Below are positions 13,301-42,100 of a DNA stretch of 64,000 bases, piece after piece. The stretch comes from Hydrolagus affinis. Taxonomy: Eukaryota. The DNA lies in contig JAAILG010001244.1 of NCBI GenBank assembly GCA_012026655.1, positions 1-64,000 of the forward strand, given 5' to 3'. The translations under genes were made by a program, and so were the position numbers. A model generated the notes under the pieces. The model had not been told where the DNA came from and did not search any database. It saw only the letters and a program-made list of their open reading frames with translations. Each line of letters opens with the position of its first letter. Positions within the stretch are counted from its first letter, which is position 1.

Positions 13301-13457
13301 AGAATTATAGAATTATACAGCACAGAAGGAGGCCACTGCCCCGTGTCCTTTCCTCCCTACGTGAAAGGTGCTCTAAAAATGTAATTTTGTTGTTGTTTTG
13401 TTCTTATGCCTGTGCTGCATCTTTGAAAAGAGCTGTCCAAATCAATCCCAATCCCCC

Positions 13458-13872
13458 ACTCTTCAGGATCCTGGTCATCGCCTTCAAAGCCCTCCATGAT
13501 CTACTCCCACCCTACCTCTGCAACTTCTTAACCCCCTACCAACCTGACCGCTCCCTCCACTCAGTGGGCTCCAGCCTACTCCATGTCCCCCATCCCACCT
13601 GCCCCACCATCTGCAGACGAGCCTTCAGCCACTCTGCCCCAACCTCTGGAATTTCATCCTGCAACCCTTCAACTTGCCCCCTCCCTCGCCTCCTTCGAGT
13701 CCCACCTCAAGACCCTCTTCTTTGACGGTCCTATCGGTCACCCCCCATAACCCTTATTTCCTTCCCCCTTCCCCGATCCCGACCCCAGCTCGGGTCTGAA
13801 ACACTGACTGTCCAGTGCCTTGGGACATCCTCCCGACATGGCACTATACAAATGTAATTTTGTTGTTGCTGT
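13458..13872 (+). mobile_element. L2 LINE 3' fragment
   Basis: FRILVIAFKALHDLLPPYL...RAFSHSAP, followed by the L2 tail and (GTT)n. Confidence 0.85.
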
Positions 13873-19380: not shown

Positions 19381-20313
19381 ACACGCAGATGACACCCAAC
19401 TCTATTTCTCCACTTCACTTTGCGACCCCCAGTCCCCTGATGTTCTGAAGCCTGCCTGTCAGACATCAGGAGCTGGATGAGCGCAAATTTCTTGCAGCTG
19501 AATGTTGACAAGATGGAGGCCATACTCTTTGGCTCTTGTCAACGTCTCCATTCACATGGCTCTCACCTCCTCCACCTTCCCGGTCTCCCCCTGAAACTCT
19601 CCGAACCTGTCCGCAACCTTGGTGTCAGGTTCGACCCCCAACTGTCCTTCCTCCCCCACATCCGGTCCCTCACCAGCACTGCCTTCTTCCACCTCCAACG
19701 GATCGCCCATCTCCGGCAATACCTTACCCCAAAAGCCACTGAAACCCTGGTCCACACTTTCGTCACCTCACGGCTGGACTATTCAAATGCCCTCCTTGCC
19801 GGTCTACCCTCCACCACAATCCATAAAATCCAACTCATCCAAAACTCTTCCGCCCACATACTCACCCGCACCAAACTTCGCACCCCCATTATCCCAGTCC
19901 TTGCCAGACTTCACTGGCTCCCTATCCCCGAGAGGATTGACTTCAAGATCCTCACTCTTGTTTTCAAATCCCTCCACTCCTCTGCAACCCCCTACCTCTC
20001 TCCTCAAACCAGCTCCCATTGCGTTCGTTCCATCGGGTCAGGCCTCCTCCATATCCCCCGAATCCTCCACTCCACCCTCGACGGCCGTGCCTTCAGCCAC
20101 TATGCCCCGAGGCTCTGGAATTCCCTACCTCGCTACCTTCATCTTGCCCCCTCTATTCTCAGTTTCAGGTCCCAGCTAAAGACCTTTCTCTTCGACCGCG
20201 CCTTTGGTCACCTTTCTACCCCTGCCCCTGGCTCGGTCCCGGGATCCGCTATTATGAAGCGCTCTGAGACGCCGTCTGGCATGGAGGCCGCTATATAAAC
20301 CGAAGTTGTTGTT
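19381..20313 (+). mobile_element. 5'-truncated L2-clade LINE (C-terminal RT/ORF2 and 3' end)
   Basis: ADDTQLY at the 5' end; ORF 19477-20298 has NFLQLN, RNLGV, SRLDYSN, LHWLP and RAFSHYAPRLWNSLP; (GTT)n tail. Confidence 0.92.
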
Positions 20314-22394: not shown

Positions 22395-22421
22395 TTTATT
22401 AAACACACAAAGATATTTATT
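22395..22421 (-). terminator. Candidate polyadenylation signals of the TNNC1-like gene
   Basis: Two AATAAA on minus (22416-22421, 22395-22400), about 270-290 nt after the stop. Confidence 0.55.
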
Positions 22422-22687: not shown

Positions 22688-22719
22688 TTACTCAATGCCT
22701 TTCATGAACTCGAGGAACT
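22688..22719 (-). CDS. TNNC1: TNNC1-like exon 6 ([10 protein letters not shown])
   Basis: 32 coding nt ending in TAA. Confidence 0.94.
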
Positions 22720-25700
22720 CTGAAAACCACACAGCTCAGTTAATAAAGCGCACAGCTGTAGCGAGAGGTTAGTCATCTAGGTAACCACTGCAATGTTACA
22801 CAGAGATTTACCTTCATAATCAATTTTCCCATCTTTATTTTTGTCTCCATCAACAAAGAGCTCTTCCAAGTCATCTTCAGTGATTATTTCTCCTGTGGTT
22901 TCCAGCATATACTGCAGTTCTTCGACATCAATGTACCCGTCAGAATTTCTAAACAAATATCATGAGTAATAAGTCATAGCTATGGGAGTTGCTGACTGTA
23001 TAAGATTACATAAATTACATAACATGTGAATTGTGTTAAAGTGCAGGCTGGTTCCAGGCGTGTAATTATTGCAGCCTAGCATTTTTAGAAAGCAATGAGG
23101 ACATGGCAACCAGGCAAGAATAATAATACTAATAATCCTTGCATTTGATATCGCCTCTTCCAGATGTCTCAAAGCACTTCACAGAATATACTGTAAAATG
23201 AATTCACTGTATGTATGTGGGTGAAACACGACAGCCAATTGCGCAATTATGACAGCCAGTGTCCCACAAACAGTCGTGGATTTGAGTGACCAAATTAATA
23301 TTTTTCTTGAGCGATTATGTGGAGTAAGGGAACTTGCCTAAGGTTTCACCCTGCCTGGAATTGAACCAAAGTCTTTCACTGTGCTCTAAGCACTGAGCCA
23401 CATCGTATTCAGGTCTATAGACTCTCACCTGTCAAACATTCTGAACAGTTCCGCCAGCTCTTCCTCTGACTTTCCTTTGCTATCATCCTTCATACAGCGC
23501 ACCATCATGACTAGAAATTCATCCAAGTCAACAGTTCCACTCCCTGCAGAAAATAAATCACAGGAGATGTGAGGAAACGAGAGGTGAGAGAATAGGAGGA
23601 GTAGGAGCCAATGTGGAGTATAAATTATACCAACCAACAAAACAGATGTTTCTTTGTTGCATCTATGACAAAAAAAATACGCAGGAAGCATAAAGGTAAA
23701 TTTAATCTATGGTTAGTAGTACGTTCTTTATTATTTCCTCCTGATTTTGTTACCCATGGCTTACAATGTAGAATAGAAAGGGATTATTTGAAACTAATAT
23801 CTGATTAACGTATTACAATAGTTTCAACATCTTTTAGATGAGATGATTATTTCTTGCTTGATGTCTTCATTGTGTCCAACTTCCCATCCTGTGATGCAAA
23901 CAACAACATCAATAATAATAAATAATTGCTTTTGTATAGCGTCTTTTATGTTGGGAGGATGTCCCAAGGCTCTGATAAAATGTCCTCAGATACAGATCAC
24001 TCACTCGTTGGTATTGATTTCTGACTTGACCTGTAAGGTGGTACTAAACAATCAGATCAAATCACAGTCACCCAGCATCCAGCCATTAAAGTTGGAATGA
24101 AGTTTCTTCTCACCATCTTCATCCACTTCATCGATCATCTCCTGCAGTTCCTCAGCGCTGGGGTTCTGATCGAGCATTCTCATCACCTTCCCCAACTCTT
24201 TGGTGCTGATACAACCATCCTCAGCACCTTGGACAAAGATGTCAAAGGCAGCTTTGAATTCTGAGCAAAACAAAGGGAAAGACCTGGTCAGGAACCATGT
24301 ACTGTACATAGCCTGGCTCTCCACTGGTGAACCATCAGTAACTGTTAGTAGAATGTCAGAATGTTTTTCGGTCAGTTGTTAATTGGATAGGACTAACACT
24401 ACAAATACATATTTCAATTTAATTTGCTCAGAAATGCTAATAAAATCAACAATTGTAACCTACTTTTATTTTGTAATTCCCAAATAATTATTATTTCTTT
24501 TTCATTCACCCATCCCCACAGGACTCAGGTTTAATTTGGGATGTCCTCCCCATGCCTTTCACACCAGAAGAACATCCCAAAGTGTCCCAGCAGCTTGAGA
24601 CATCCTTCCAACATGAAAGGCGCTATGTAACTGCAATTTATGTTTGTGTTGGTGCCTCATCCTTAAGGGTGGCACACCAACAATTAAGTCCCAATCTGAG
24701 GTTTGAACCCACAACCTTTTGACTCAGAGGCAAGTGTCATACCAGTTTAGTATGAGTGTCAGCTTGTTATTGCACCGCAAGCACTCACCAGCCTTTTGTT
24801 CTTCTGTGAGCTGCTCAACCTGTAAGAGAAACACATTGTTAGGCTCCACAGAATAATAAAAATGTTAATGACTTTATATCTATTTGTTTTATTAGCTGTT
24901 GGACACTTATTCAGATAATTGGTTCAAAACCAGTAATGAATGAATTAAGGTATAAATGATCCTTGTTCCCCAAACTAATATTTTAAAACACATGTTTGCA
25001 AAAGCTTAATTCGAAACATAAAATGCATAATTAAAATAATTCATTCCAAATTTAATTTACACTCATTCTCTTCAAATAAATCTTGCTGTTTATTCCCCAG
25101 CGGCACTGGAGTCCTAAGGCTCAGTGGTTAAAGCACTCGCCTCACTAGCAAGAGATGTGGGTTCAATTCCAGGCAGGTCAGGGTGAAACACTGGGTACGT
25201 TTCCTTACTCCACACACCTAATAATAATCCCTAAAAGAAAAGTTTTAATTGGTCATTTCAATCCACAACTGTTTGTGGGGACATTGCTGTGCATAATTGG
25301 CTGCCGCATTTTGCCTACAATCTACAGTCAATTCACTTTACATTGAAGCACTTTGAAACATCTAGAACATGTGAAAATGTGCTACACTGTATATTAAATG
25401 CAAGGATTATTATTGTGGGGTTAGGGTTATAGGCAGTTCACAAACAAACAGACTGTGCAAAAAAATTCCAAACATACTATTCACTACTTCCTTGAATAAT
25501 TGTAAATAATAATCTTTGCATTTGATCTACAGCCTTTTACAATTCAATACAAATTTATTACATTTATGTACATAGTGCCTTGCATGTCAGCAAGACATCC
25601 TAAAATCACATTGTCTAGATGTTACAAGGCATTTCACAGGACTTACTGCAAAGTCTAGTGTCTGTGAATACAATAGCCAATTTGCACACAGTCATGTCAC

Positions 25701-26293
25701 GCAAATAGCCATGAAGTGAATGATTCATTTTGTCCGGGGGATTGTTAAGCAGGATTCCAGGAAAAATTCTCCTCGCTTTTCAAATAGTGACAATAGCGCC
25801 ATAGGATCTTTAATGTCAACTTGAACAGTCAGATGAGATCTTAGTTTTTTTTTCATCTGACGGACAGTGTTCTCTGAGCATCGCACCTGTACACACTCAA
25901 AATCCCAATATGGGGATTGAACCCACACCTCAGTGACAAGACTGCTACAGGTAAGTCACACTAATACTAATCATTTCTTGTAATGCCAATTAGGTATTAA
26001 GTTTCATTGCTTAATATTTAAATATCTCCAGAAACAAGTAATCGATCTGATAGCTGCTTAATATTAATTTTAGCGACAGAATTGTTCAATTTGTCAATAT
26101 CTATTTCAAATAGCATTTAATACTTCTATTATTCCTGTAAACTTTTAACAGCTCAACGATTAAGAATAACTTGCAAAGCAGTACATGCATGAGTCAGAAC
26201 CATGTCAGAATGCTAGTGTTTTCTAATGTGACCCGTTAAAGTATTAAAATGTGCTTTAAGGCTGCTCACCGCGGCTTTATAGATATCTGACAT
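22688..26293 (-). CDS. TNNC1: Troponin C, slow skeletal/cardiac type (TNNC1-like), 6 coding exons, 161 aa
   Basis: Exons 26270-26293, 24789-24819, 24114-24260, 23429-23543, 22812-22948, 22688-22719 (24/31/147/115/137/32 nt), all GT-AG and in phase. Protein: [161 protein letters not shown]. Defunct EF-hand I and Cys35/Cys84 are diagnostic of the cardiac/slow type. May be a paralog rather than the strict ortholog. Confidence 0.95.
22812..22948 (-). CDS. TNNC1: TNNC1-like exon 5
   Basis: 137 nt, NSDGYID...DGKIDYE (EF-hands III/IV). Confidence 0.95.
23120..23400 (-). mobile_element. tRNA-headed SINE in TNNC intron 4
   Basis: Same family. Confidence 0.85.
23429..23543 (-). CDS. TNNC1: TNNC1-like exon 4
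   Basis: 115 nt, [10 protein letters not shown]...FRMFD. Confidence 0.96.
24114..24260 (-). CDS. TNNC1: TNNC1-like exon 3
   Basis: 147 nt, EFKAAFDIF...EVDED. Confidence 0.96.
24789..24819 (-). CDS. TNNC1: TNNC1-like exon 2 ([10 protein letters not shown])
   Basis: 31 nt, TTACAG acceptor and GTGAGT donor. Confidence 0.93.
25109..25414 (+). mobile_element. tRNA-headed SINE in TNNC intron 1
   Basis: Same family. Confidence 0.85.
25560..25950 (-). mobile_element. DeuSINE-type SINE in TNNC intron 1
   Basis: Reverse complement of the Deu core (aaatagtg...ccataggatctttaatgtcaacttgaacag). Confidence 0.7.
26270..26293 (-). CDS. TNNC1: TNNC1-like exon 1 (MSDIYKAA)
   Basis: ATG at 26293, donor GTGAGC. 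Confidence 0.93.
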
Positions 26294-26348
26294 TGTTGCT
26301 GCCTTCCTCGCCTCGCTCTCTCCTGGCTCCTGTTCCCTGCGGTTATTC

Positions 26349-26731
26349 CTTTTATATATTTGAAGAATGAAAACGCTCGACCCACCCCTTTCCTTGCCCA
26401 GGTCACAGAATGGTCCTTGTAGCAGGACCCAAGACAGCCGGCCCTCAGCTGCTACTCTGCAGACACAAACCTCGGCTGCCTGGAATGTGTACATCTCATT
26501 GAAGCTTTTTATGTTGCAAAGAAGAATGTAGCATCTATAAATACCAAATTGATAAGGTAGAATGTACAACAGAAGCCCCTTAAAAGGAGCAATTACGAGA
26601 GAATGCAAATAGCCCTGATAAACAAACTGGACATCACTACAGGTCTTTGCAAGGTTTTGAGAGATAAGGAAAGTTTGGATAAAGTAAGATTGTACAGGCA
26701 TTTTATTGCTGAGGGTGGGGGGGAGGGGAAG
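26349..26731 (-). promoter_or_regulatory. Muscle-type proximal promoter of the TNNC1-like gene
   Basis: TATATAAAAG 26349-26358; E-box CAGCTG 26446-26451; M-CAT-like CATTCCA 26481-26487; perfect CArG CCTTAAAAGG 26578-26587; WGATAA at 26550, 26616, 26662; G-rich/CACC box ~26711-26731. Confidence 0.65.
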
Positions 26732-27589
26732 GAGGCAGTGTACTCCTGTGTTTTTTGCTCTGTTTCTTATTGAATGGCACACATTCTGCTGATACATCAC
26801 TTGGCATTGTACACCCAAATAGCTGCTTTTCATGTTTAGAACCAGACAATGATAGTCTTCAGGCTATGCAACCATGAAGGCATCTTCTCCAAAGTTCACA
26901 CGTGAGGTTTTCGAGCAAGGTTCACCTTAATAGTGACCAGGAACAATGATTGATGTTCACTTTCCATTACCGGGGCACTGAGATCGATGGACCACACCAC
27001 AGGTCAGACACTGTATCACATTTTTGATGGGATGAACTGATGCCTGTTAACCAGATATACATGAACTTAATAAAGCTCTCACCAAAACTCTATTGGAGGA
27101 AATTGGTGTCTGGCCTCCACTAACTGACCAGCCTGCTGTGCATATCCATTATGATGTTTTTATTCTGGTTACAGGACTGTCTGGGATTCAAGGAATAATT
27201 ATGAACTGTAACTCATTCCCACCAGTTGGTCTCACGCAGCTGCTCTGACAAGGAATGACTGAAACTATAAGCAGCCTGAACCATATAACAGTGTTTCAGA
27301 TTCACATGTTGAGCATGGGCACGAAGTACTCTTTATCTGCAGAAGGTAATGAACACATACGAACATAAGAACTTGCCAGGCCAACGAAGACCAAGGTCCA
27401 TCTAGTTCGCCTTCCATCATACTGGCAGTTGTTTGGACATGTCATGTCCCAAATCATATACTGTGTTCTGAAATATTATTTATATGGTTTAGATTTTATT
27501 CATGTATAAACTCCATCTGATTTATTTTGTGTGCGTTTGGTTTGAGGATGAAGTGGACAAATGTACACTATCACTATCCATAGTGCAGT

Positions 27590-28040
27590 TCTGAAGCTCG
27601 GTGGTTACAACACTCACCTCACAAGCAAGAGATCTGGGTTCAATTTACAGCAGGGGATGGGGGAAGGAAGTGAGTTGTGTCATCCTAGTTAAATATTCAT
27701 GGAAAACATTAGAAGAGTGAATACGGTGAAATATATCAATGAATAATGTTAACAGTGAAACGTGTGTATTTACTAACAATGTGCTGCATTGTTGAAATTG
27801 GTCTTTTTTGGATGAGATATAAACGAAACTCCTGTTTTGCAGTTTGTTTAGGTGGACATTAATGATTCCATGGCACTAGTTGAAAAGAGAATAGAGTTTC
27901 TCGTGGTGTTCTGGTTGATAGGACCTTCTGATAAAATTGGCTACTGTGTTAGACGACAAACACAATCAGTATACTTACAGTAAATCTTGTGAAGCACTTT
28001 GGAATGTTTCAAAGATGTGATAAGATACGATACCAAATAC
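27590..28040 (+). mobile_element. DeuSINE-type SINE upstream of TNNC
   Basis: ggatgagatataaac...ggtggacattaatgattccatggcacta core, plus tail. Confidence 0.65.
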
Positions 28041-29951
28041 AACAGCAAAATAAAATCTTGCTAAATACAGTTACCCTAACATCCTAGAATTCACATTTTC
28101 TGAATGTTCTACATTAACAACCATCATTACAGATACAAAGCTTATATGAATCAAAGTGTGATAGATCCATAATTCTTCTTGCGGGACAGAATTAGGGCTT
28201 AGACCAGTAACAATAACTTACTAAGATAGAATATTTTGTATCTATATCCAAAAAAACATACATTTTAAGCTTTAATGTCCAAAGATTGATCTGATGGATA
28301 TTTTAGAAGAGCACAATCCCTTGGCAGTACAAACACCACTCTGACAGTCAACTCAGTACATGTTGATACAGAAGGAAATCCACCGAACGGGCTGAAGAAT
28401 AATGCACTATAATCAATTGTTATTTAAAATAATTGGGTGGGAACAAAGGAACCTTTTGCTTCTATGTCACCATCTTTTTAAAGTGAATGGAACCCCAAGC
28501 AAAGTTGTCAGGCAAAATAATTTTCCTGTTTTGTTTCCTGTTTACCCTCCATCTGCTTCCAGTGAAGACAATGCTAATATTGTGTGTGCTTGTGCCTGGA
28601 ATGTTCTGAGCATTCTAGCAGGAGCCATATTGGATGTCCTTGCCTTTACCTAATGAAATATATATAATACAGTACAGGTATATAATAATTCTTGCATTTG
28701 ATATAGCAGCTCTCACATCGGATGTCTCAAAGCGTGTTACAGGATATGCTGTGAAGGTGGGGCGACTATGCATTTTGTGGCCGTGAATAAATAAAAGAAA
28801 ATCAGCATATGTTCATTATTTTACTCTTAGTACATCAGTACGTCAGCGCATATCGCAGTTGGTTCAAAACCGCTCATCTTTTTCTTGAAACCAACTAAAT
28901 TGTGTGTGATAAATTTCTTGTTGCAGATTATTTCATGATTGTTTCAACTACTTGGATTCTTTTTCACTTACATAGCGCCCCTCATGCAACGTAGCGACTC
29001 AGAGTACATTTTGCTTTCAAAGAACTGCTGCTTCTCTTCAACTATCTTCTCAGCTGGTCTTGAAATAGATGTTCCCTTATGATTTGATCCATTGTTGTGC
29101 ATCTGTGCATTGGTTTCACAGACAAGTTATGTTTCAGAGAAACCACAACCCTGTACTTTACTGTGGAGACTGGCTATGTGCCTCAGTGTTTCTGAAGATG
29201 GATAATAAGCCATGGACAAGCATATTGAGTAGTAAAATACATGCCAGTTTTATTTACAATTAATTCTATCAATAGACACAAATTACAAATGGTTCAATAC
29301 AAAAACCCTTAAAAGGTTCCAAATTGTCAGTCTTTTTTTTAACAAATAGTGTAAATAAAACTGTTAACAATCTTTATTTTATTCCCTAATGGAATCCAAT
29401 TCTTTCTTCCATTTGGTGATAATGACAATTTTCATAGCCAACATATCATAATATGGCAGATATCTCAACATTTGCCTGGTTCATAACAGACCCAAAGAAC
29501 TGTTGAATATTTCACATGCATAACAAGAACATGTATTTTGATCTTAAAATGAAGAGTAGCTATTAAACAGGATGACACACTGCATTGTTACCACATACTA
29601 ATCTCCCAGGAGTGATCAATGGGCAATTCAAGCCTTCTTTTATGGTGATACAATTGACACTATCTTCAGACTTCACTGTGGTACAAGAAGAGATTTGATT
29701 TATACCTCTGGCTTTAATAATCTGGCTCTTTGCAAAAAGATGTGAAAAGGATTTTTTATTACATTTAAATATTTCAGTAAATGGGAACACTTCATGTAAA
29801 GTGTGACTGTGATCAAAAGTTTTGGAATCTGTTAGTGCATTGTGGATTGGTACAGGAATAGGTGGTTTGGCCTGTTGAGTGAATTCGGCCACTTCATTAC
29901 ATCAAGGCATCATTATATATTATTACAATACAGTATATATAATTATATATT

Positions 29952-30232
29952 ATAATAATCCCTGCATTTGATATAGTGCTTTTCACATCTTCTGAGCATC
30001 TTAAGCACTTCACAGAATATACTGTAAAGTGAATTGACTATATATGTGGGCAAAACGCAGCAGCCAATTGTGCACAACAGTGTCCCACAAACAGTTGTGG
30101 ATTGAAATGATAAAAAAAAATCCCCAAAGATTATTATCAGGAGAAAGGAAACTTGCCCAAGGCTTCGCTCTGCCTGGAAGTGAACCCAGGTCTTGCAATG
30201 CAAGTGATCTGACCACTGAGCTAGAGGACCTC
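29952..30232 (-). mobile_element. tRNA-headed SINE
   Basis: Same family. Confidence 0.85.
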
Positions 30233-30545
30233 AATACTCAATTTCTCTTCATATCCTTGAAGCATTTACTTCTCAAATATCAGTGATTCACTTATAGTAA
30301 TTCACCCGAGCCATTGATTATTCAGGATTTTATTAATTTAATATTATTGTTTTATCTCATCTCAGATACACACAAAAATGATAATAAAACCAATACAAAT
30401 CTTAAATATGTACACTATATTAAAAAAATGATGCCTGCATGTTACCAGTGATTTTAACTACCTAAATATATAGGTTAATTAGATTTTAGTGATTTTTTTT
30501 CTAAAAGTATTCATGAACTGAGCACTTTAAAATGTCGAAACATAT

Positions 30546-30990
30546 TTATCTTTGCAAATTAATTTGCAAAGTCGCCCTGTCATTTTGGGGACTCCTGTTT
30601 GTCTTTGGCTTTCTTTTTATTTTCTCCTTAAGTTTTAAAGTGGAGTTTTTAATAATTCTGGCGAGGATCTGCTGCCTCCGGTGTGACTGTGGTGGAAATG
30701 CAGCAGATGTCTCTGTTGGCCTGGCTGCTTGTTTCAGCTGATAGAGTGACATGGCAGCATTCAGTTGTCTGCTAGCTGCTTCTTGTGCTCCATCTGCCCT
30801 GTAGTTAAAGGAACGAAATACTCCCTTTTCCACATCCCAGTCAAACCCACCAATTCGAATCAAATATTTATAACTGGTATATGACCATCCAGGGCATTCA
30901 ACATCAGTGCTATCCTTTCTAACGACCTTATATCCACATCCTATCCTGATCCTCTCACATTCCATGGGCCATGCAGAGGGACACAGTGGC
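30546..30990 (-). CDS. MSMB-like gene exon 3 (PLCPSAWPMECERIRIGCGYKVVRKDSTDVEC plus tail)
   Basis: Pyrimidine-rich acceptor; in frame with the 139-aa ORF 30546..30965; AATAAA at 30329-30334 downstream. Confidence 0.72.
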
Positions 30991-33423
30991 CTGCGAAGAA
31001 CACATGAAAGAAATTGTTATTACGTACACTGTAAAGAATGTACAAAACTACAGTATATGTTTTTTAGTTTTACATCATTCATGCTCATTTATCTCAATGA
31101 ATAAATACAATACTAATCTATGGCTAACCTAAGACTGAAATCATGGCCAGCTCAACGAGACATTATGAGATACGTTTAACTAAAATATTTGCAGACCTTT
31201 CAAGTAGATTAACAAATTAAGAGAATGCGTGCACTATGATTCTTAAGTATAGTGATAGTTTCTGCATAAGTCAGATATCTGGCCAACAAAACAATAGGAA
31301 ATAAGCGTAGGACTATAAATCATCTTGTGTGTTCAATTAAGGATCTTGTGGGTTAAAAGGCTCACCAGAAGACAAGTTTCAAATGCAAGGATTATCAATA
31401 ATAATCCTTGCATTTGATATAGCGCTTTTCATGTCTTCTGGACGTTTCAAAGTACTTCACAGAATATACCATAAAGTGAATTGATTGTATATATGTGGAC
31501 AAAACTAAAATTAATATTCTTGTCTTATGAGAAAGAGCTTCAGCTTGCAGGTTTGAAGACACCTTTACGTATTTACATGGATTCCTGTAGATCTTGCTTC
31601 AATAAATGATGATAATAATCCTTGCATTTGATGTAGCACTTTTCACATCTTCTAGAGGTCTCAAAGCGCTTCACAGAATATACTATGAAGTTAATTGACT
31701 GCACATTAGTGGGTGAAACACGGCAGTCAATTACGCACAGCAGTGTCCCACAACCAAATTATTATTGGGGGGGGCGGGAGGGGGGTATTATTATCAGGCG
31801 TGTGGAGTATGAAAACTTGCTCCAAGTTTCACCCGGCCGGGAAATGAACCCAAGTCTCTCACTTGCAAGGCAAGTGCTCTAACCACTAAGCTACAGAATT
31901 CCATATCTCTTCAGCATCACTTTAGCCCCAGGGGGATCTCACCCGTCACCCTCTTTCTTTGCTAATCCCCCCACCCCACTTCCACACACACACACACAAA
32001 AACACATGGAGGATAAATTTGGAGTTACCCCACCCACCAGCTCAATGACCCAGAACTTTCTGGTCCTAAGTCTAGAGTTGCCCAGGATGTTATACATCAT
32101 ACACTGTCTCATACAGATGACCTTGATAAAAATCACCCTGTAATTAATGTCTTGCAGGAAAATTGTTTAAACACACCAGAAGTCCATCGATATCCAGTAC
32201 GGTTAATTTACTTACGTCTCACATTCTTGAAAGACATCTCCACTCACTAAAATACAACGACAGAGCTTGCAGCCTTCCCTTGGGTTCTCCTGCCACTGGG
32301 TACCAACCAGCTCCTGAGAGCAGTGACCTAGATGTAGACATGAAACCACAATGACTAAGTCGGTGCCTTTTCATCGTATCAATGATGGAATGTATATAGA
32401 CCAATATCGAAATGTCTCGCAAGTTTGAACCGCATTCCTATCATTAGTCAACCAATTTCTTTCATTGCAGTTATTTTATGCATGACTCAATTTACACACA
32501 TTAACTTCTAGATGTTCATGTATGTTTAAACAATTCTGTAAACCTCTCACTTAGAAATTAGCTTACAGAACATGTCTCTTAATGGCAGTTCTGACGAAGG
32601 TTCGAGGACCCGAAATGTCCTGTGCATTTTGCATTACACAGCCTAAACTATAACCTGAGTCCAGGTTTGGTTGAATTATTTATAAAACCAGCAGGACTCT
32701 TTGCCATTAATTCCAACAAAGGTGCATTTCAATAGAACGATTTAACATCAAACATAATGTGTTCTATTTTAATATGTCTCAAAATCAGTTCAAAATGTAG
32801 ATTGAGCCTCATCAGACTTGTAACAATCTGAATGTCATTTCATACAAAATATCTCGCATGAAATTCAGAAATTCACCGGAGAATTCAATGGGTGTAAATG
32901 GATATGTCGACAGATCTATTGAACACACACAGTATTTAATGGTAAACAAAACACAAAATACTACAGATGCTGGGAATCTGAACCAAAAACAAAAGTTGTT
33001 GGGGAAACTCAGCAGGTCAAACAGCATCCATGGAGAAAGGAAAAGGAGTCAACGGTTCGGATCTACAACCGTTCTGACAAACGTTGTAGACGAAGGTTTG
33101 ATGAAGGTTGTAGACCCGAAACGTTTGTATTTAATGGTATTGCCTCCTTCCAAACCCAAACTGCTCTTGAAGTAGATGCAAAGTTGAGCTGTTTACCAAC
33201 TGAGAAGCTGCACTTGTTTTTACCAACTTTCTTTACCACCAGAACCATGTGGTATTACACACATAATTCCTACCTTTGTCTGCCTACACACAGAATGGGG
33301 GTGTTTTTTTTTAGAAAAATGAAAAGTTAGGCGAGTCTTACCCAGATCAGCACCAAGCAGCATTTGTGTGGTTTGAGGAACAGCCCAGGCGACCCACAGC
33401 AGGGTGGTATAGAGACCCATCAT
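30546..33423 (-). CDS. Putative secreted beta-microseminoprotein (MSMB/PSP94/MSMP)-like protein with long basic C-terminal extension, 3 exons, 212 aa
   Basis: Exons 33342-33423 (82 nt, signal-peptide-like, G|GTAAG), 32216-32327 (112 nt, CTAG| and |GTAAGT) and 30546-30990 (445 nt, TTCTTCGCAG|). Phases 1 and 2 join into one ORF: MMGLYTTLLWVAWAVPQTTQMLLGADLGHCSQELVGTQWQENPREGCKLCRCILVSGDVFQECETPLCPSAWPMECERIRIGCGYKVVRKDSTDVECPGW... The W..CxxCxC and CxYxVVxK...C motifs resemble MSMB. Confidence 0.7.
31610..31902 (-). mobile_element. tRNA-headed SINE in intron 2 of the MSMB-like gene
   Basis: Same family. Confidence 0.83.
32216..32327 (-). CDS. MSMB-like gene exon 2 (HCSQELVGTQWQENPREGCKLCRC...ECE)
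   Basis: Only one of three frames is open, and it fits both neighbouring exons; consensus GTAAGT donor. Confidence 0.72.
32950..33125. mobile_element. Same repeat: minus copy joined head-to-head to a plus hammerhead-like core
   Basis: caaaatactacagatgctgggaatctg...aacggttcggatctacaacc, then TTGATGAAGGTTGTAGACCCGAAACGTT. Confidence 0.65.
33342..33423 (-). CDS. MSMB-like gene exon 1 (signal peptide)
   Basis: In-frame stop upstream; ATGATGG; hydrophobic LYTTLLWVAWA with an A-X-A site; phase-1 donor GTAAGA. Confidence 0.6.
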
Positions 33424-33506
33424 CACCTGGTGTAACCAGTCTCAGGACAAATACTGCAGACGATGAATAATCTCCTCCCTTGAAGAGCCACACCTTAACT
33501 GGCCTC

Positions 33507-33514
33507 TTTAAATA
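33507..33514 (-). promoter_or_regulatory. TATA-like box of the MSMB-like gene
   Basis: TATTTAAA about 85-90 nt upstream of the ATG at 33423. Confidence 0.4.
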
Positions 33515-34779
33515 CAATATTGAGACAGCCAGACACCTCCCCTCAACCCTCCCAAACGTGCATCCTTCCTGAGCCTCTGGCTATGTGAGAGTCGTGTGTG
33601 TGTGAGACCAGGGCGCTCCTGTTTCGTGCTGGACGTGTCCACTTGCCCACATATTCCAGATGATTGATCCCAGTGGAAAATAACACCTGTAAACGGCAAA
33701 CCAGTGTCCACACCCCTGTCACTCACTGCCCTGTCTGCCTAGCCCTCTCCCACATGAACACATGTTAGTCAATGAATTTCCCTTCTGATGTACGTGGAGT
33801 CTCACACACAAGTCATGGTGATATCAACTACTGGGATATCAGAAGAACTTTGCCTTGTCATAAAAAGCCTGGGGTGGTGGGGGGGAAATGGGTTCTCAGT
33901 TGAATTAAAAACTAAAAGGGTTAAAGGCATTCAGTGCTGAGTGAGCCTGTGTCCATCCTATAATGTTTTAGTTTATAAAAATGCAAGATCCTCTTAGTTG
34001 TTTCCTGCTAAATTTATTGCTGTTTCTGAGCTTGACTTGCAGATAAATCAATCAACACAAAATGGACTTCAGTTTTAACATTGACCCAATAATATTGCAA
34101 GTAAATTGCTGTTAATTATGTTGTTAAAACCTTTATTATCTTCAAATCCACTTAAACTTTAAATATTTATTTTGATTATTAGCTAAAAGAAAAATAATGT
34201 ATTTCAGTACATTTATTGCTTAAATATATTGATCTTTAATTGGTCAAATGGATCAATTGGTCAAATACAGAAACGTATAATGAGAGGGGTTTCCGAACAG
34301 ATATGTCTTACTTTCTTCAGAAAATATACTGCAAAGATATCTCGAAGAACATTGAAACACACAAAGACATCAATAAGCGGTTTTGATGACTACAAAATCA
34401 ATGACAGAACATGTTGATAAAACATTTATTTCTTTAACATTTAATATATATGTTGCTATTTTGAAAAACAAATATTATCGAATATTACAAGAAACTGAAT
34501 GAATTGAAGGTTTGTAACAAATAATATAAAATGCCACAATTGAGCTCCTATCTAAGCGATCATCTGGAGAGAGTGTATTGTTTGTGGTATAAACTGTGAA
34601 AAATTCTGAATGACACAAAGCAATCTCCACAGCCCAGAAAGGCTCCAACTTTCAATTATTGGTTTTAATCCCATATAACCTTAATCCGATTCTGCATTCC
34701 TCAATTCCCAAAGGGAATTGTTCACTGGTTGAGTGACAAACTTGTCTGTGAAATATTTAGTATATTTTACAACAATTAT

Positions 34780-34879
34780 NNNNNNNNNNNNNNNNNNNNN
34801 NNNNNNNNNNNNNNNNNNNNNNNNNNNNNNNNNNNNNNNNNNNNNNNNNNNNNNNNNNNNNNNNNNNNNNNNNNNNNNN
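34780..34879. other. Assembly gap (100 N, probably of unknown size)
   Basis: Run of exactly 100 N followed by poly-C. Confidence 0.99.
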
Positions 34880-35917
34880 CCCCCCCCCCCCCACCACCCC
34901 CAAGAAAGATAGTCAGTTATTAGTCATTTGACCTCTAACAAGCATAACATTGAGCCCTTGCTTGGCACCATCTTCCTGTCCGCAGTTCAGAAGCGCATTC
35001 TAAGCATTGAATGACAATTCTACAAGTTGAAGGTGCTGATAAATCTTTGCAACTAAAACTAATTTTTAGCGTCAAAATCAGTCACATCTGACCTTAAAAA
35101 TCCCTAACCATCACCTATCCATTATTATTATAATATCACATGGATCTTATTATGCAAACCTACATTTTGTGAGTAATCTAATCACACAATCGGATGAATA
35201 AGGAAATGTGGCCCATTTTATTTCATCCTTTCACAATACCCATCCTACACGTCTTCACATTACAGCATAACACAGCTATGCACAACATCAACAAAATCAT
35301 ATTTATTTATAGAGTGCCTTTTACGTTGGGAGAAAGGGCAGAAACTTGGGCAAGTTTCTTTACTCCACACGCCTGAAAATAAACCCTCAAGAAAAAAAAA
35401 CAATTTGAAATTGGTCATTTCAATCCACAACTGTCTGTGGGAGACTGCTGTGCACAATTGGCTGCCGCATTTGGCTGAATGCGCTAAATCAAATGCAAGG
35501 ATTATTATTGTAGCATAAAGTGTTTATTATAGCCTTATTTTTATTGCATATAGTGTTTTTTAAATAATATGTTCTGGCTTGAACCACCCTGGCAAACATT
35601 CGTGGCCCAAACTCAAGTGTGGGCTGTGGGACAGCCTGAAAGCAGATAGTGCTGTTTATTTGAAGGTGGTCAATCGAGTGCAAACACCTCTCCTCAAAGG
35701 TGCAATCATGAGTAGGTCCCCTGTGCAGGGCAAGGAGGCTGTGAGGAAATCCGCTCATTTTCAGCACTCATGTTCACTTGCTTTGTTTTTTGCTTAAAAA
35801 AACAAAACACTCGAGGAAGACAAGATGCTGTCCTCGCAGTTTCTCTGGCTGATGACAGCTTTCAAGTGTCCTGTGATTCTAGATAGCGGTTTTTTGGTTT
35901 GTATGTGGACAGGAAAA

Positions 35918-35943
35918 GGGGGGGTGGGGGCGGAGGGGTGGGG
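35918..35943 (+). promoter_or_regulatory. G-rich element (GC box, G-quadruplex-capable) upstream of STAB2
   Basis: G7-T-G5-CGGA-G4-T-G4 including GGGCGG, about 130-157 nt before the ATG. Confidence 0.45.
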
Positions 35944-36074
35944 AGAGCAAACTGTAAAAGGCAGGAGATGGGAAGGAAGAAACTGCACAGGGCACTACAG
36001 AGGAAACCCAGAAGAATGCAGTCCTGCTGAAATTATTTTAAAATAGATTTAACAATCACAACCGAACCTTAGCA

Positions 36075-36158
36075 ATGAAAGAACAATTAAGTTACAAGCT
36101 CACACTAATTTTGCTTATGCTGACAAACTGCTTGCTGACCAATTCCATTGGAGGCCAG
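36075..36158 (+). CDS. STAB2: STAB2 exon 1 (signal peptide [28 protein letters not shown])
   Basis: 84 nt, CAG|GTATGT, phase 0. Confidence 0.8.
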
Positions 36159-39100
36159 GTATGTGTTTTTTTAATGTATTAAAATGTTGTGTTTTTACAC
36201 TGTAATCGTGAAAGGATCAGCCAAACTGTCTGTTTGGCTCTGCGTAAACTGTGGCAAATAGTTGTAACAATTTTTCAATGGGGAACAAAACCTGAAGTAT
36301 TGCAACAACAACAACAACAAAATTACATTTGTATAGCGCCTTTCACGTTGGGCACTGCATTGGATTAGACCTTAGCAGTTCCAAGTTTGTTAAATGTTGT
36401 GCTCAGCTGAAGAGTTGCAAGGCGGGCAATTTGCAGTTATTCATTGTGCTCTTATTTCTTTGATTTAGTTATTTTAATCAAATTGTAGCTAAATATCAAA
36501 TAATTTTCTCCACCTTGCATTGCTCTAATCTTTGCAAACACATAGTGCAGCGTCTGTGGCTGAAAACCATTCCTGCTCCTCGCCTTAAGACAACTGTCAC
36601 AGAATTAACCATTTTTTATGAGATGCCAGGAAACTCGCTTCTAAATTGGGAGTTACTTTAAGAATGTTCCAAAATGCATCACGACCGTAAGTTTTTAGGC
36701 TATGGTCTTAAGGCTAGGCCATTAGAAATGTTGGGCCTGTGATGTGATACTTTCCAAAGACAAAAGGCAAAGCATCCGCAGAAAAGCATTGGCAAAATGT
36801 GTGCATTTGTGAGACTCTAATGCGATGATGGAATCGTATTCAAATGCGCTTTTGCATCGACTGCATTGGTGCACCATTTGCCAGCAATGACATGCGTGAC
36901 GGTTAAAATGCTTTATTGCTGTGAGACCGCCTTCCATCCTAATAATAGAAGCAGCGCTTTAGCGATACGAAGCTTTGATACTTACGATTTGTATTGCTCC
37001 AACAGAAAAGCAATAGATGTGACAAAAGGACTATCATACAGACCAACACTCCATGCCGATCCTGCATTCTAAATGCCGAGATGCGCTGTGCCCCTGGTTA
37101 CCTTCAGATCACTAAGAATTTTGGCAAAAGGGACTGCAGGTAAAAAATACCATGATGAGAAAAATGTGATGTTTGCAAAAGATTTGCCTTGTAAATTGCT
37201 TGCGTGATTAATGTTCAGTAAACTTTATTTTTTTGTGAAAGGTATAACATTCCAATTAGGACGTACTCATTGGCTATCCCTGGCTGTCGCCATTTGTGCT
37301 CCAAGCTCTTCTCTGAACCTCAATGCTGCGCTGGTTATTGGGGAGTCGATTGTATGGGTAAGAAATTGTGCATCATTCCCATCACTTGTCAACTTGGTTA
37401 TTATTTCAGCACCTTGGGACGTCCTCCCGACGTGAAAGGTGCTTGAGAAATGTAATTTTGTGGTTGTTATTTCACAGATATTTCAAATGAAATTCCAAAC
37501 ATGTTCATATTTTCATTCCTTTGGGGCAAGGCGATCCTTGCTGGATAAGCAGCAGAAAGCTTGCCAAACAGTGCTTTCAATGGCAAACTGTGGGTATAGC
37601 GCCTTTCACGTTAGATGGTTAAACACAAACAATACTATGTCTGTGGCCCCACAAGCCTTTCCAATCAATGCATAATGCTCTCTGGGATTAGATAAACAGG
37701 GTGGGTCTCTCTGGGAAGAATGCTCATTCAATTGCAGAATTTACATTTAGGTTGGCATGCTAAGAACTGCAGTTTGGTTTGGATATTCTTAAGCGTTGTG
37801 ATGGATTTCCGTATGTGTCAGACATCCAAAACACCTTTAAAACACCTTTCATTCACCTATAATAGTAGGAACTTCAATACATTTGTACCATCCATTCAGG
37901 ACTTGGAATCGCATAGTCTAAGATGATATTCCAATGCAGTGTTGAGCATGTGTTGCATTGCCAGAGGTGCCGTCCTTTGGATGAGACAATAAACCAAGGT
38001 CCTGTCTGCCTGTTCAGGTGGACGTCAAAGATCCCGTGGCACTATTTAAAAACAGAAGGGAGTTTCTCCCTGTGTTCTGGCCATCAAATCCCCCAAATAA
38101 AATTGGTCACCCACCCCATGGTTGTTTGAGGGACATTGCTGTGTGCAAACTGGCTGCCACGTTTGGTCCACAAAATACACAGTCACTCCACAGTATATTA
38201 TGTGAAGCGCTTTGTGATGACTCGACATGATAAGGTTCTATACCGAAGGAATGATTATTACTATTACTATTATTATTATTGTCATTTGATGATGCCAGGA
38301 GAGATGCTACAAGTGCAATTAAGAAAGATTTCCTAAAAGGGTGCAAATGTTCAGGTGTTTTTAGTTACAATGTCCATATTTTAAACCAAACCAAATTTGT
38401 GTCCTGTAGCTCAGTGGGAACAGCACTAGCCTCGCAAGCATGAGGCTTGGGTTTGATTCCCAGCAGGATGAGACGTTGGGCAAGTTTCCTTAGTCCACAT
38501 GGCTGATAATAATCTCTCAAGAAAAAAACATTAAAATAAAATAATAATCCTATCACTTCTATCCACAACTGTTTGTGGGACACTGCTGTGCGCAATTGGC
38601 TACCCTTTTTCGCCTGCAAATATAGTCAATTCACTTCACAGTTGATTTTGTGAAGTGCTTTGCGATATGTGGAAGACATGAAAAGCACTATATCAAATGC
38701 AAGGGTGATTATTATTGTAAAATTAGGAGAATTATAAGTCATTGCAGACCATATTTGCTGGGTCTAAATTCCTTAAAACATAAGGAGTACATTGGCAGGA
38801 GCTACTAGTATTTTGGGGACTTTTACTAGTGATCGTATGGTGTTTGGTAAAAGTAGCCTCAGGGATGGTAATGATGATAACACTGAGGATGTAGAACAGC
38901 TTGGGAGCAGAAAAACAGTGAGCTGGGTGAGAATTAGACAAGAGAATGGGTCAAGATAACACACTCTAATGAGATAGAGTTGTATCTGTTGTACTGCATC
39001 TTGAGAGACACAGAAAGAAGCAGAATAGAATAATTGAGAGAAAGCTTTTCCACTAATTGATTGAAACTGATAGCTCAGAACTCAGAGAAATATCCAACAG

Positions 39101-42100
39101 CTTGGGGCATCCTCTAGGCATGAAAAGTACTGCACAAATGTAATCTGTTGTTGTTGCATGTTGCAAAAGTTAGATATTACGAAACCTCCCTTCTCTCATT
39201 GTGACAATGGGAACGCCTGCTTCTAATGCGTTCGAAACAAAATGAGAGTCACAGAGAGTTGCAGATGAATAGATTGAGAGAAAGGTTTTCTACCAATTGA
39301 TTGAAGCTGGTAGAACTCAGAGAAACACCCAGCACAGAAAGTAGCCCTTCGTCTCACATAAAACACCAGAGGTAGATAATTAAATATCACATTGTCTTGG
39401 TATTTAGTATTAGTTCTAGCATTTACAACATATAAATCTTCTATGTTTAATTGTTGATATCCAATGATTATGTGAACGTAAGAAGCAGGAATGAAGAAAA
39501 CTTACGAAGTGTCGCTACTGTCATTTCTTGATTCACCTTATTTAATCATATAATAATTTCTTGTCCATTATATAATCAGATCAGGCATAACTAATAACAA
39601 TATATATTACTATTATATTATTATATTATATTTTCTGCTTCAAATTGACATTTTTAATGCATTTATAAAGTATCTCAAGCTGTTTGAGATTTTATTATTT
39701 TGCTGTATATCCTACTTTCTCACACAACTTGGTATTTTAAGCATGTATCTACCATCCAGATTTGATAACTTTGTCAAGTTTATTTATAAATAGTATGAGT
39801 AGCTGAGGTTCACAGATAGAATGCTGTACTCTGCAGATCATCCCTCCCAATAAAGCCCCAATGCCTTTGATTACCACCCTTTGTTTCTTACTATTGCTCA
39901 GTTTACATTTTTTGTTAATCTCTTCAGTGCAAGAGTCTTATCAAATACCTTCTGACACTATATGTGAGTGTAACATCCACCAGCCCTCCTTATCAGCCAC
40001 ATTTGTAACATCCCCAGAACACTCTAAATGTAAAGGAAGACGTAAATTGTTTAAATGACTAATAATACATTTGAGGTCAACACATGTCCATGAAAGAAAG
40101 AAAGTCATATAATGATGAATATATTTGCAATGATGAATACATTTCATGTCTTGCCTTTCATAGACTTGTTTTGACCTGAAATTGTTGCTCATACTCTTGC
40201 TTGTATTAATGTAAAAACATGTTTTTCTGCAGAAGGGAATAATAGTCAAGCTGGATAAAAGTAACTATTGTAACTTGAGATGTGCATGTTTTAGTAGAAT
40301 GGATTTGCTATTGTCACATTGGTGAAATAGTGTTACTTGGGATGATATTAAATTGCTGTGTTACTTGCTTGTGTAATATTAAATTTAATCAGAACAATAT
40401 ACGGAGGAGTGACATTTGTGCCTATAATTAAAAATGCATAAAATAAGTATTATATTGTATTGTGTTTCACCAGTGCAGGCAAATGTGAAGATCACTTAGT
40501 GACTCCACATGAGGATTCATGAGTTAGGAAGTAAAAGCAGGGAAATAGTATTAAATGCTCTATCATAGTAGATTAAATAGTGTGACAGATTGAACAGGCA
40601 AAATGTTTTTGCCTGTTTCCTGGAATCCTAAACCATATTTGTGGTCTGTTAAAAGTAATGGAGCTAGTAGTGACTCAATGAAAATTTTCCAACATGATCT
40701 TAAAATTTGGTTTATCGGTGACTAAAACAATGGCAGAACTGAACTCCGGTATTTCTTGGTAAAAAGAAACTTAAGAAATCCTCCCTTGACTGATTGAACA
40801 TTGTTATTTACGAGTTTCACGTTGTGTTTCCTTATTAATAAGCAAACCCATTAATCTTTCAGTGGGTTCAATCTTCTAAGGGTTTTAAACATCCTGCTTA
40901 TACAAAGCATAATTATTAGAGTAAGGGTGATGAGTAAACAGAGGGTCATGGGAGGTACAGTACTCAAAGATCACTCTATTGCTCACTATTAGCAAATAAG
41001 TTCTAAAATACTATATTTCTATTCACAATGTTGACAGCCACAACAACAGTAAAATTATATTTGTAGAGTGCCTTTCATGTCGGGAGGACGTTCCAAGGCG
41101 CTGATAAGGAGTACAAGTAAGGAGTTGAATAACTTTAAGTTTCTATTGATCAAATTTTGAGAGGCAATCAAACTGCTGAATGGCTGAAATTTAACTTGTA
41201 CCTCTTGGTAAAATGGCCATCAAACATTGTTGGTGAACAATTGTACAAAATCGAGCAGAAAATGGATAAGGTATAAAAACTCAAATAATAATAATAATCC
41301 TTGCATTTGAAATAGCACTTTTCATGCCTTCCAGACATCTTAAAGCACTTCTCAGAATATACCATAAAGTGAATTGACTGTATATTTGTGGGTGAAAATG
41401 CAATTCCAGATAGAGACATAGAAATAGGAGAAGGCCATTCAGTCCCTTGAGCCTTGCCTGCCATTCTATCATATCATGGCCACTCCGTACATCAACTCCA
41501 ATTACCCGCTCTTGCTCCATATCCCTTGATACCCTGACCTAACAAATATATACCCTGACAACAAATATGCATTGGATACTAGGGGAAGGAGTGTCTCTCA
41601 TGCAGGTTTGGTTCAAATGGAGATTTCAAATGAAATTAAAGGGTTAAACCTAAAGTGGATGTCTACAGTTGGAAATCAAATTGATTGAAGATACGTCTCC
41701 ATTTGATTAATTAAGGTCAAATTACATGACCTTAAAGTCTGTAAAGTCAATTTTACTTGTTTTCTTTCATTCCTCCAATTGTTTTTCTTAGCCTGTTTGA
41801 AGGTAATAATTCATACTGACATACAGTCCAGAACCTTGGGCAACAGAAGGTGCGCCATAGCTTATTGAAGTCTTAATTAAGACTTAAGTCTCCAGTATCT
41901 TGTCCTCTCAATGTGAAAGATGCTAAATAAATATAAATTTCTATTGCACTGAACCATTGGAAGGAATTCTGTGTGTTTACTTTCAGATGTTTTCCTAGGC
42001 TATTATGTACAGATTTTGGGAAACTCCAATCCATCTATTGCTGAGATAGGACCATTATTAAAAAATGACAATGAGTTCCTATCTCTGCAGTCTTATCCTC

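What the first reader, a model, noticed from the sequence alone, without database searches (positions are those of the whole stretch)
22688..36158. TNNC1-type gene linked to STAB2, not STAB1: candidate retained whole-genome-duplication ohnolog (a third troponin C)
Seen: a complete cardiac/slow-type TnC lies ~10 kb (plus a gap) upstream of, and divergent from, a stabilin whose peptides match STAB2. Known: human TNNC1 sits in TNNC1-NISCH-STAB1-NT5DC2 (3p21), while the paralogous STAB2-NT5DC3 block (12q23) has no troponin C. Inference: this is the sister ohnolog of TNNC1, lost in mammals. That fits its roughly 25 substitutions relative to human cTnC, which is many for such a conserved protein.
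Basis: partly seen in the sequence, partly recalled or inferred. Interest (0 to 1): 0.7.

Follow-up and report, generated by a model that had tools for sequence, protein, structure and literature searches.

The report
Extra cardiac-type troponin C beside STAB2
This chimaera genome carries an intact extra copy of the heart-type muscle calcium switch troponin C next to the STAB2 gene; it is likely a leftover of the early vertebrate genome doublings and probably shared with the coelacanth, which would mean jawed vertebrates began with more troponin C genes than the textbook two.

Summary
Confirmed. A six-exon, 161-aa cardiac/slow-type troponin C (minus strand, 26293-22688) lies head-to-head with STAB2, 9.8 kb ATG to ATG. 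All five introns are spliced in RNA of a close relative. The 100-N gap is bridged by single contigs in two runs (about 170 bp), so it is no mis-join and hides no NISCH. The genome also holds canonical TNNC1 (25 aa different, beside ATRIP), TNNC2, STAB1, NISCH and one exon of a further TNNC1-type gene. This is therefore one of at least four troponin C loci, not a third. It is orthologous to elephant shark XP_007893497 (5 differences) and groups with a coelacanth 'TNNC1-like' protein (96/99), although an AU test does not reject a chimaera-only duplication (p=0.20). Best reading (about 0.78): a retained whole-genome-duplication ohnolog on the STAB2 block, acting as a site-II calcium trigger in some striated muscle, with most changes in the C-lobe. 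Ten paper searches found no description of the class; a 2016 paper apparently listed the elephant-shark gene as 'TnC1a'. The scan's earlier notes do not hold it. Tissue and chromosome-scale synteny are untested.

The parts
26294..26471 (-). 5' UTR of the TnC gene; RNA 5' ends pile up at 26470-26471; no upstream ATG
   Evidence: table 6 (18 molecules at each of two positions, run X14, a close relative)
26270..26293 (-). TnC coding exon 1 (residues 1-8)
   Evidence: intron of 1450 skipped in 242 reads
24789..24819 (-). TnC exon 2 (31 nt)
   Evidence: intron of 528 skipped in 281 reads
24114..24260 (-). TnC exon 3 (147 nt): inactive site I, B/C linker with D49, S53, A54, start of site II
   Evidence: intron of 570 skipped in 342 reads
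23429..23543 (-). TnC exon 4 (115 nt): rest of site II (L74), central linker
   Evidence: intron of 480 skipped in 364 reads
22812..22948 (-). TnC exon 5 (137 nt): sites III and IV, most divergent exon (F137, V138)
   Evidence: intron of 92 skipped in 356 reads
22688..22719 (-). TnC exon 6 coding part with stop codon
21500..22687 (-). 3' UTR: high RNA depth to about 22250, tailing off to at least 21500; AATAAA at 22421, 22400, 22100, 22032, 21881, 21785, 21570
34780..34879 (.). 100-N scaffold gap followed by a poly-C run; real size about 170 bp
   Evidence: table 8 (X2 record 20, X4 record 28)
36075..36158 (+). STAB2 coding exon 1 (signal-peptide-like, 28 codons, GT donor at 36159)
   Evidence: the sequence directly
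36979..64000 (+). STAB2 further exons (EGF and FAS1 repeats); continues to the contig end at 71113; 3' part on contig C12507

Best explanation
This is an intact cardiac/slow-type troponin C gene, spliced in a close relative, separate from canonical TNNC1 and linked head-to-head to STAB2; it is likely a copy retained from the early vertebrate whole-genome duplications, and it is predicted to act as the calcium trigger of the thin filament in some striated muscle. How it would work, by established cTnC knowledge (recalled): site I cannot bind calcium (V28 insertion, Q29, A31). Site II keeps its six ligand positions (D65, D67, S69, T71, D73, E76), binds calcium on activation and opens the N-lobe for the TnI switch peptide. 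Sites III and IV keep their ligands and anchor the protein on TnI. Shown: gene structure, splicing, ligand residues, linkage, paralogy. Inferred: ohnolog origin, muscle role, and a tuned rather than new function. 18 of the 25 differences from mouse lie in the C-lobe, so the divergence probably concerns anchoring to a particular TnI/TnT set. G49D, T53S/P54A and F74L in the N-lobe are the likely modifiers of calcium sensitivity.
For: Gene model. Five of five introns spliced, 242-364 reads each, depth about 500 in run X14 (my estimate about 350 reads per kb per million) and none listed in run X15, which suggests restricted expression. Canonical TNNC1 on C9569 has the same exon lengths, 25 aa differences, saturated synonymous sites (pS 0.87) and pN 0.09; it lies next to an ATRIP gene (human ATRIP at 3p21 is recalled). 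Two mirrored blocks: TnC-STAB2 (C1244) plus STAB2 3'-NT5DC (C12507), GC 37-39%; and TNNC1 (C9569), NISCH (C18121), STAB1 5' (C35320), STAB1-NT5DC (C5552), GC 47-49%. Gap bridged. Elephant shark orthologue has 5 differences. Window + elephant shark + coelacanth 'like' protein form a clade at SH-aLRT 96.4 / UFBoot 99 among 71 sequences, and only these carry all of S2, A18, A54, R106, F137 among 208 proteins. TnI and TnT are known to keep extra 2R copies in cartilaginous fish (PMC9825255, passages and section 8).
Against: The AU test on 36 sequences does not reject a chimaera-only duplication from C9569 (deltaL 12.4, p=0.20), grouping with canonical chondrichthyan TNNC1 (p=0.23) or grouping with the shark 'like' clade (p=0.088); only an all-chondrichthyan clade is rejected (p=0.015). 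The backbone of the TNNC1-type tree has no support. F137 occurs in 4 of 9 and R106 in 5 of 9 cyclostome sequences, so part of the coelacanth signal may be ancestral or convergent, and both branches are long. The coelacanth gene's neighbours were not seen. TNNC1, NISCH and STAB1 lie on separate contigs, so their linkage here is inferred from GC content and from poly-C/poly-G contig ends. In bony vertebrates TNNC1 is flanked by RPL29 (PMC12043008, passages), but here RPL29 is on another contig and ATRIP is the neighbour, so local order does change. The tissue of X14 is unknown; calcium binding and incorporation into troponin were not measured.
Confidence: 0.78

Rival explanations
1. A duplication confined to chimaeras (or cartilaginous fish) copied TNNC1 with its introns, the copy landed beside STAB2 by chance and diverged fast; the likeness to the coelacanth protein is convergence.
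For: AU test does not reject it (p=0.20 and 0.23); no shark, ray or ray-finned orthologue found; long branches.
Against: It needs a chance landing head-to-head with the one paralogue of TNNC1's usual neighbour STAB1 in a 1.1-Gb genome; synonymous sites are saturated; the coelacanth clade has 96/99 support and is 12 log-likelihood units better.
Confidence: 0.09
2. The TNNC-STAB-NT5DC block was duplicated as a segment before jawed vertebrates radiated, independently of the whole-genome duplications.
For: All evidence here is local: three gene families on fragmentary contigs.
Against: Human 3 and 12 are named as members of one 2R quartet with 1 and X (PMC8851675, one passage); a BTG1/2-type gene beside ATRIP on C9569 fits the same paralogon (the human locations of BTG1/2 are recalled).
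Confidence: 0.08
3. The gene is the misplaced orthologue of a known class (teleost tnnc1a or tnnc1b), not a class of its own.
For: In the 71-sequence tree the clade sits among teleost tnnc1a; Genge et al. 2016 seem to list the elephant-shark gene as TnC1a.
Against: That placement has support 0/26 and 74/34; of the tnnc1b signature (D2, V4, N11, E14, E87/E88, G108; PMC5471341) only E14 is present; the genome has a more conserved TNNC1 on C9569.
Confidence: 0.05

Closest known systems
Elephant shark 'troponin C, slow skeletal and cardiac muscles-like' XP_007893497.1 / XP_007893496.1
   Same: 156 of 161 residues; shares D49, S53, A54, L74, F137, V138; clade support 99.7/100. This is the orthologue.
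   Different: It is an automatic annotation only. Genge et al. 2016 list an elephant-shark 'TnC1a' as GI 632955498, one below the GI of XP_007893496.1 (632955499), so by my inference they used this gene without recognising it as a separate paralogue.
Coelacanth 'troponin C ... -like' XP_006005735.1 (H3APB9)
   Same: Shares S2, A18, A54, R106, F137; clade 96.4/99.
   Different: 23 differences; keeps G49 and F74; its gene neighbours were not seen.
Vertebrate TNNC1 (cardiac/slow TnC; PDB 1J1E, 6KN8 and others)
   Same: Length, six-exon layout, dead site I, ligand sets of sites II-IV.
   Different: 25 differences from mouse, 18 in the C-lobe; replaces residues that are near-invariant in other gnathostome TNNC1-type proteins (G49 172 of 174, F74 174 of 174, M137 172 of 172); linked to STAB2 without NISCH instead of NISCH-STAB1.
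Ray-finned tnnc1a/tnnc1b pair (Genge et al. 2013 PMC5471341; 2016 PMC4860682)
   Same: A second cardiac/slow-type TnC gene beside the first, with differing expression.
   Different: Those were explained as a ray-finned tandem duplication; this gene lacks the tnnc1b signature and occurs in a cartilaginous fish.
TNNI4, TNNI5 and TNNT4 (Joyce et al. PMC9825255)
   Same: Troponin subunit genes kept from 2R in cartilaginous fish and lost in amniotes.
   Different: That study covers TnI and TnT only and still states two TnC groups plus a ray-finned duplicate.

Membership tests
TNNC1-type (cardiac/slow) troponin C | 161 aa with N-helix, six coding exons of 24/31/147/115/137/32 nt | tested here: met
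   same lengths in C9569
TNNC1-type (cardiac/slow) troponin C | Site I inactive: one-residue insertion at 28 and loss of two Asp ligands | tested here: met
   site I loop aligns without gap to cTnC and with a gap to TNNC2
TNNC1-type (cardiac/slow) troponin C | Ligand residues of sites II, III and IV intact | tested here: met
   only non-ligand positions differ (ligand numbering recalled)
TNNC1-type (cardiac/slow) troponin C | Separated from TNNC2 in a tree | tested here: met
   TNNC2 clade 100/100 excludes it
TNNC1-type (cardiac/slow) troponin C | Expression in heart or slow muscle; calcium-dependent regulation in the troponin complex | not testable with these tools
   spliced RNA in 1 of 2 RNA runs, tissue not given
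Orthologue of mammalian TNNC1 | Linked to NISCH and STAB1 | tested here: not met
   neighbour is STAB2; gap only about 170 bp; NISCH on C18121; only repeat-type matches between NISCH contig and the intergenic region
Orthologue of mammalian TNNC1 | Closest TNNC1-type gene of its genome to mammalian cTnC | tested here: not met
   C9569 has 12 differences from mouse, this gene 25
tnnc1b / ssTnC class | Signature D2, V4, N11, E14, E87/E88, G108 (PMC5471341) | tested here: not met
   only E14 present
2R ohnolog of TNNC1 | Lies in a paralogous block with other duplicated families | tested here: met
   TnC-STAB2 direct; STAB2-NT5DC and STAB1-NT5DC each on one contig; NT5DC2 versus NT5DC3 identity not tested; TNNC1-NISCH-STAB1 link only inferred
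2R ohnolog of TNNC1 | Duplication older than the split of cartilaginous and bony vertebrates | tested here: inconclusive
   coelacanth clade 96.4/99 but AU p=0.20 for a chimaera-only origin
2R ohnolog of TNNC1 | Both blocks map to 2R copies of one ancestral chromosome | not testable with these tools
   assembly has 245,464 contigs; no other vertebrate genome searchable; the ohnolog database paper's one readable supplement had no TNNC1 or STAB2 entry

The most novel reading that the evidence does not exclude
Jawed vertebrates inherited a full quartet of cardiac/slow troponin C ohnologs: the STAB1-linked TNNC1; this STAB2-linked class (chimaeras, coelacanth); the tnnc1b class (which also appears in lungfish, so is not ray-finned-specific); and a fourth class on small GC-rich shark, ray and chimaera contigs (C110167 here). 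The STAB2-linked protein, with G49D, F74L and M137F at otherwise near-invariant sites, is a specialised calcium switch paired with one of the extra TnI/TnT genes in a defined muscle type.
Probability: 0.3. Interest if true: 0.68.

Novelty: new member of a known kind. Interest (0 to 1): 0.5.

Why it matters
Reviews still count two vertebrate troponin C classes plus a ray-finned duplicate (PMC9825255). An expressed, STAB2-linked cardiac-type TnC in chimaeras, probably shared with coelacanth, would push the diversification of TNNC1-type genes back to the early genome duplications, as was recently shown for TnI and TnT. It would reopen the 'tandem, ray-finned only' account of tnnc1b and correct at least one probable mis-assignment in the literature. 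It also offers a natural, long-conserved cTnC variant with substitutions at positions that are almost invariant elsewhere (G49, F74, M137), useful for structure-function work on calcium sensitivity. It is not a new mechanism: retained ohnologs are common in cartilaginous fish.

Tried and rejected
Mis-join at the gap: rejected. Pseudogene or retrocopy: rejected. STAB1 instead of STAB2: rejected; raw identity alone is biased because amphioxus stabilin is also closer to the window gene (11 of 12 exon pairs), so trees were built. A flanking gene on the TnC 3' side: Pfam scans of 138 and 12 further open frames from 1-22,300 gave nothing at E 0.005 or better, so that side gives no synteny; short exons would be missed. 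The TATA box at 26358 is probably not the main start, as reads reach 26470. A first AU run with fast searches was under-optimised (no hypothesis rejected by AU) and was replaced. Four fragmentary rows (P0192, P0205, P0147, P0191) were dropped before the tree and non-homologous ends of gene models were masked; the tree used 67 of the 208 database proteins, chosen by hand for taxon spread, plus 4 genome sequences. Single-sequence AlphaFold of the elephant-shark orthologue gave pLDDT 55 and was not used. PDB could not tell NT5DC2 from NT5DC3. No coelacanth or elephant-shark STAB2 record came up whose accession or scaffold could be compared. No indexed RNA holder was listed; the two RNA runs were additions from the same study as X1. 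Runs X1 and X12 had no listed contig across the gap (no evidence either way). Ten paper searches found no description of this class; the library lacks most subscription journals. Supplement file 1 of PMC4860682 and the supplements of PMC8851675 could not be read and may bear on prior description.
Full report
1. The observation. The window is G000:C1244:1-64000 of a 1.11-Gb assembly in 245,464 contigs. On the minus strand six exons (26293-26270, 24819-24789, 24260-24114, 23543-23429, 22948-22812, 22719-22688), all bounded GT-AG, give 486 nt and a 161-aa protein. Exon 3 matches cardiac/slow TnC best in the PDB. The protein differs from mouse cTnC at 25 positions, 7 in residues 1-89 and 18 in the C-lobe; human cTnC was not fetched. 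A stabilin starts on the plus strand at 36075, 9,782 bases from the TnC start codon. The closest database protein is elephant shark XP_007893497.1, with 5 differences, so the source is inferred to be a chimaera.

2. The gene is expressed. Raw poly-A RNA reads of a close relative (run X14, about 27% of the run read) skip all five introns exactly, with 242-364 reads each, almost all in one orientation; exon depth is about 500 and 5' ends pile up at 26470-26471. The second RNA run, X15, under the same sample code, shows none of these joints and no depth on the exons. The two fixed exon differences displayed for X14 are synonymous (only 40 of 210 differences were displayed). The tissue is not given, so 'restricted expression' rests on 1 of 2 runs.

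3. The link to the stabilin is real. The only gap in the window (34780-34879) is crossed by a single contig in each of runs X2 and X4 (one organism, two studies, about 98% like the window), with 172 letters between the aligned parts; X1 and X12 list no crossing contig. The gap is thus about 170 bp and cannot hold NISCH. No single contig spans TnC to STAB2.

4. The stabilin is STAB2. All five named hits of one exon are bird STAB2 (5 of 10 hits named). Mammalian STAB2 (P0219, named) matches the window better in 9 of 10 exon pairs; caecilian STAB1 (P0222) matches the other stabilin, C5552/C35320, better in 9 of 13. Because amphioxus stabilin is also closer to the window gene, trees were built on 347-405 shared columns with three guides. 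C5552/C35320 falls in the STAB1 clade at 98/99, 99/99 and 100/100. The window gene is outside it every time and joins STAB2 in 2 of 3 trees at 87/64 and 92/75.

5. The genome has at least four TnC loci. C9569 holds a complete TNNC1 with the same exon lengths, 25 aa different from the window protein and 12 from mouse; synonymous sites between the two are saturated (pS 0.87, pN 0.09; GC3 also differs, 0.50 against 0.75). C15594 holds TNNC2. C110167, a 1.4-kb repeat-rich contig, holds one intact exon 5 of a further TNNC1-type gene, which groups with shark and ray 'like' proteins at 96.6/97; its other exons were not found.

6. Two mirrored blocks. Block A: TnC head-to-head with STAB2 (C1244); the STAB2 3' part (residues 1758-2458 of the guide) lies tail-to-tail with an NT5DC-family gene on C12507. 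Block B: TNNC1 with ATRIP and a BTG1/2-type gene on C9569, NISCH on C18121, STAB1 5' on C35320, STAB1 tail-to-tail with an NT5DC-family gene on C5552. Block A contigs are 37-39% GC and block B contigs 47-49%; C9569 ends upstream of TNNC1 in a C run and C18121 ends upstream of NISCH in a G run, which fits but does not prove adjacency. RPL29, which flanks TNNC1 in bony vertebrates including coelacanth (PMC12043008, passages), lies on C1643 here. The human gene orders in the finding (3p21, 12q23) are recalled, not tested.

7. Age and distribution. In a 71-sequence LG+G4 tree the window and elephant-shark proteins group at 99.7/100 and are joined by coelacanth XP_006005735.1 at 96.4/99; deeper TNNC1-type branches are unsupported. 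Among 208 proteins only the two elephant-shark isoforms and the coelacanth protein carry all of S2, A18, A54, R106 and F137. Against this, F137 is in 4 of 9 and R106 in 5 of 9 cyclostome sequences, and the AU test on 36 sequences does not reject a chimaera-only duplication (deltaL 12.4, p=0.20); only an all-chondrichthyan clade is rejected (p=0.015). No orthologue appeared among sharks, rays, ray-finned fish, lungfish or tetrapods. One search listed the best 120 of 311 clusters and only up to 15 members per cluster were read, so this is not proof of absence; but a protein this divergent would be expected to form its own 90% cluster near the top of the list.

8. How it likely works. Site I has the cardiac pattern and sites II-IV keep their ligands, so by established cTnC biochemistry (recalled; outlined in PMC4860682 and PMC5471341, passages) it should act as a single-site calcium trigger. 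Chimaera-specific changes hit near-invariant positions: G49D (G in 172 of 174 other gnathostome TNNC1-type proteins), T53S, P54A (167 of 174 P), F74L (174 of 174 F), M137F (172 of 172 M) and V138 (0 of 172). That they are kept in two chimaera lineages with only 5 differences overall points to selection on a changed function rather than decay (inference). The C-lobe bias suggests co-adaptation to a TnI/TnT partner; cartilaginous fish keep extra TNNI4, TNNI5 and TNNT4 from 2R (PMC9825255, passages and section 8). None of this was measured.

9. What is in print. Joyce et al. state two TnC groups plus a ray-finned duplicate; their supplement has no TNNC entry. Genge et al. 2013 and 2016 explain tnnc1a/1b as a ray-finned tandem duplication and say lobe-finned vertebrates have a single TnC1 (passages). 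The 2016 supplement lists elephant-shark 'TnC1a' as GI 632955498, adjacent to the GI of this gene's isoform X1, so the gene was probably used but mis-assigned (inference). PMC13450315 (outline and one supplement), PMC8851675 (two passages) and PMC12043008 (four passages) do not describe it in what I saw. Ten searches (listings only unless named above) found no account of a STAB2-linked TnC. The scan's own notes hold other chimaera ohnologs but not this one.

10. Verdict. Distinct, intact, STAB2-linked paralogue: near certain. Whole-genome-duplication origin with a muscle calcium-trigger role: about 0.78. It is a new member of a known kind, annotated only as '-like' in databases. Interest 0.5; up to about 0.68 if the four-class picture holds.

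Noticed in passing
L015:266-402 (G000:C110167): Lone intact exon 5 of a further TNNC1-type gene in tandem-repeat-rich, GC-rich DNA; groups with shark and ray 'TNNC1-like' proteins (96.6/97), a possible fourth class.
   Followed up: partly
protein P0019 (lungfish XP_043936338.1): Carries D2, V4, N11, E14, E87 and G108 of the 'teleost-specific' tnnc1b signature and lies on a scaffold of different length from lungfish STAB1; suggests tnnc1b is older than ray-finned fish (tree support only 72.6/72).
   Followed up: partly
L008:6570-8183 (G000:C9569): Two-exon BTG1/2-type gene head-to-head with ATRIP near canonical TNNC1; possibly a third BTG1/2 ohnolog.
   Followed up: partly
G000:C9569 and L059 (G000:C1643:51554-51640): Canonical TNNC1 is followed by ATRIP, while RPL29, its neighbour in bony vertebrates, is on another contig: a local rearrangement in one lineage.
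   Followed up: partly
L011:159-599 (G000:C11268): Intronless calmodulin-like reading frame on the minus strand.
   Followed up: no
L079 (G000:C1900:7129-7497): Second, weaker match to the nischarin C-terminal PH family (E 7e-11) in a 616-codon open frame; identity unknown.
   Followed up: no
window 24158: A DNA contig of run X1 encodes T53 (the usual vertebrate residue) where the window and the RNA reads of X14 have S53: possible polymorphism.
   Followed up: no
proteins P0001 and P0121: The elephant-shark orthologue has I103 (M103I is a human cardiomyopathy-associated variant, recalled) and a predicted isoform with a 12-residue insert between exons 2 and 3 that did not appear among the joints shown for X14.
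   Followed up: no
window 1-22300: No protein-coding gene detected by Pfam; fragments resembling LINE reverse-transcriptase ends (label recalled) at 19441-20295, 13303-13722, 1011-1385 and 63249-63998, and many copies of a short interspersed repeat.
   Followed up: partly
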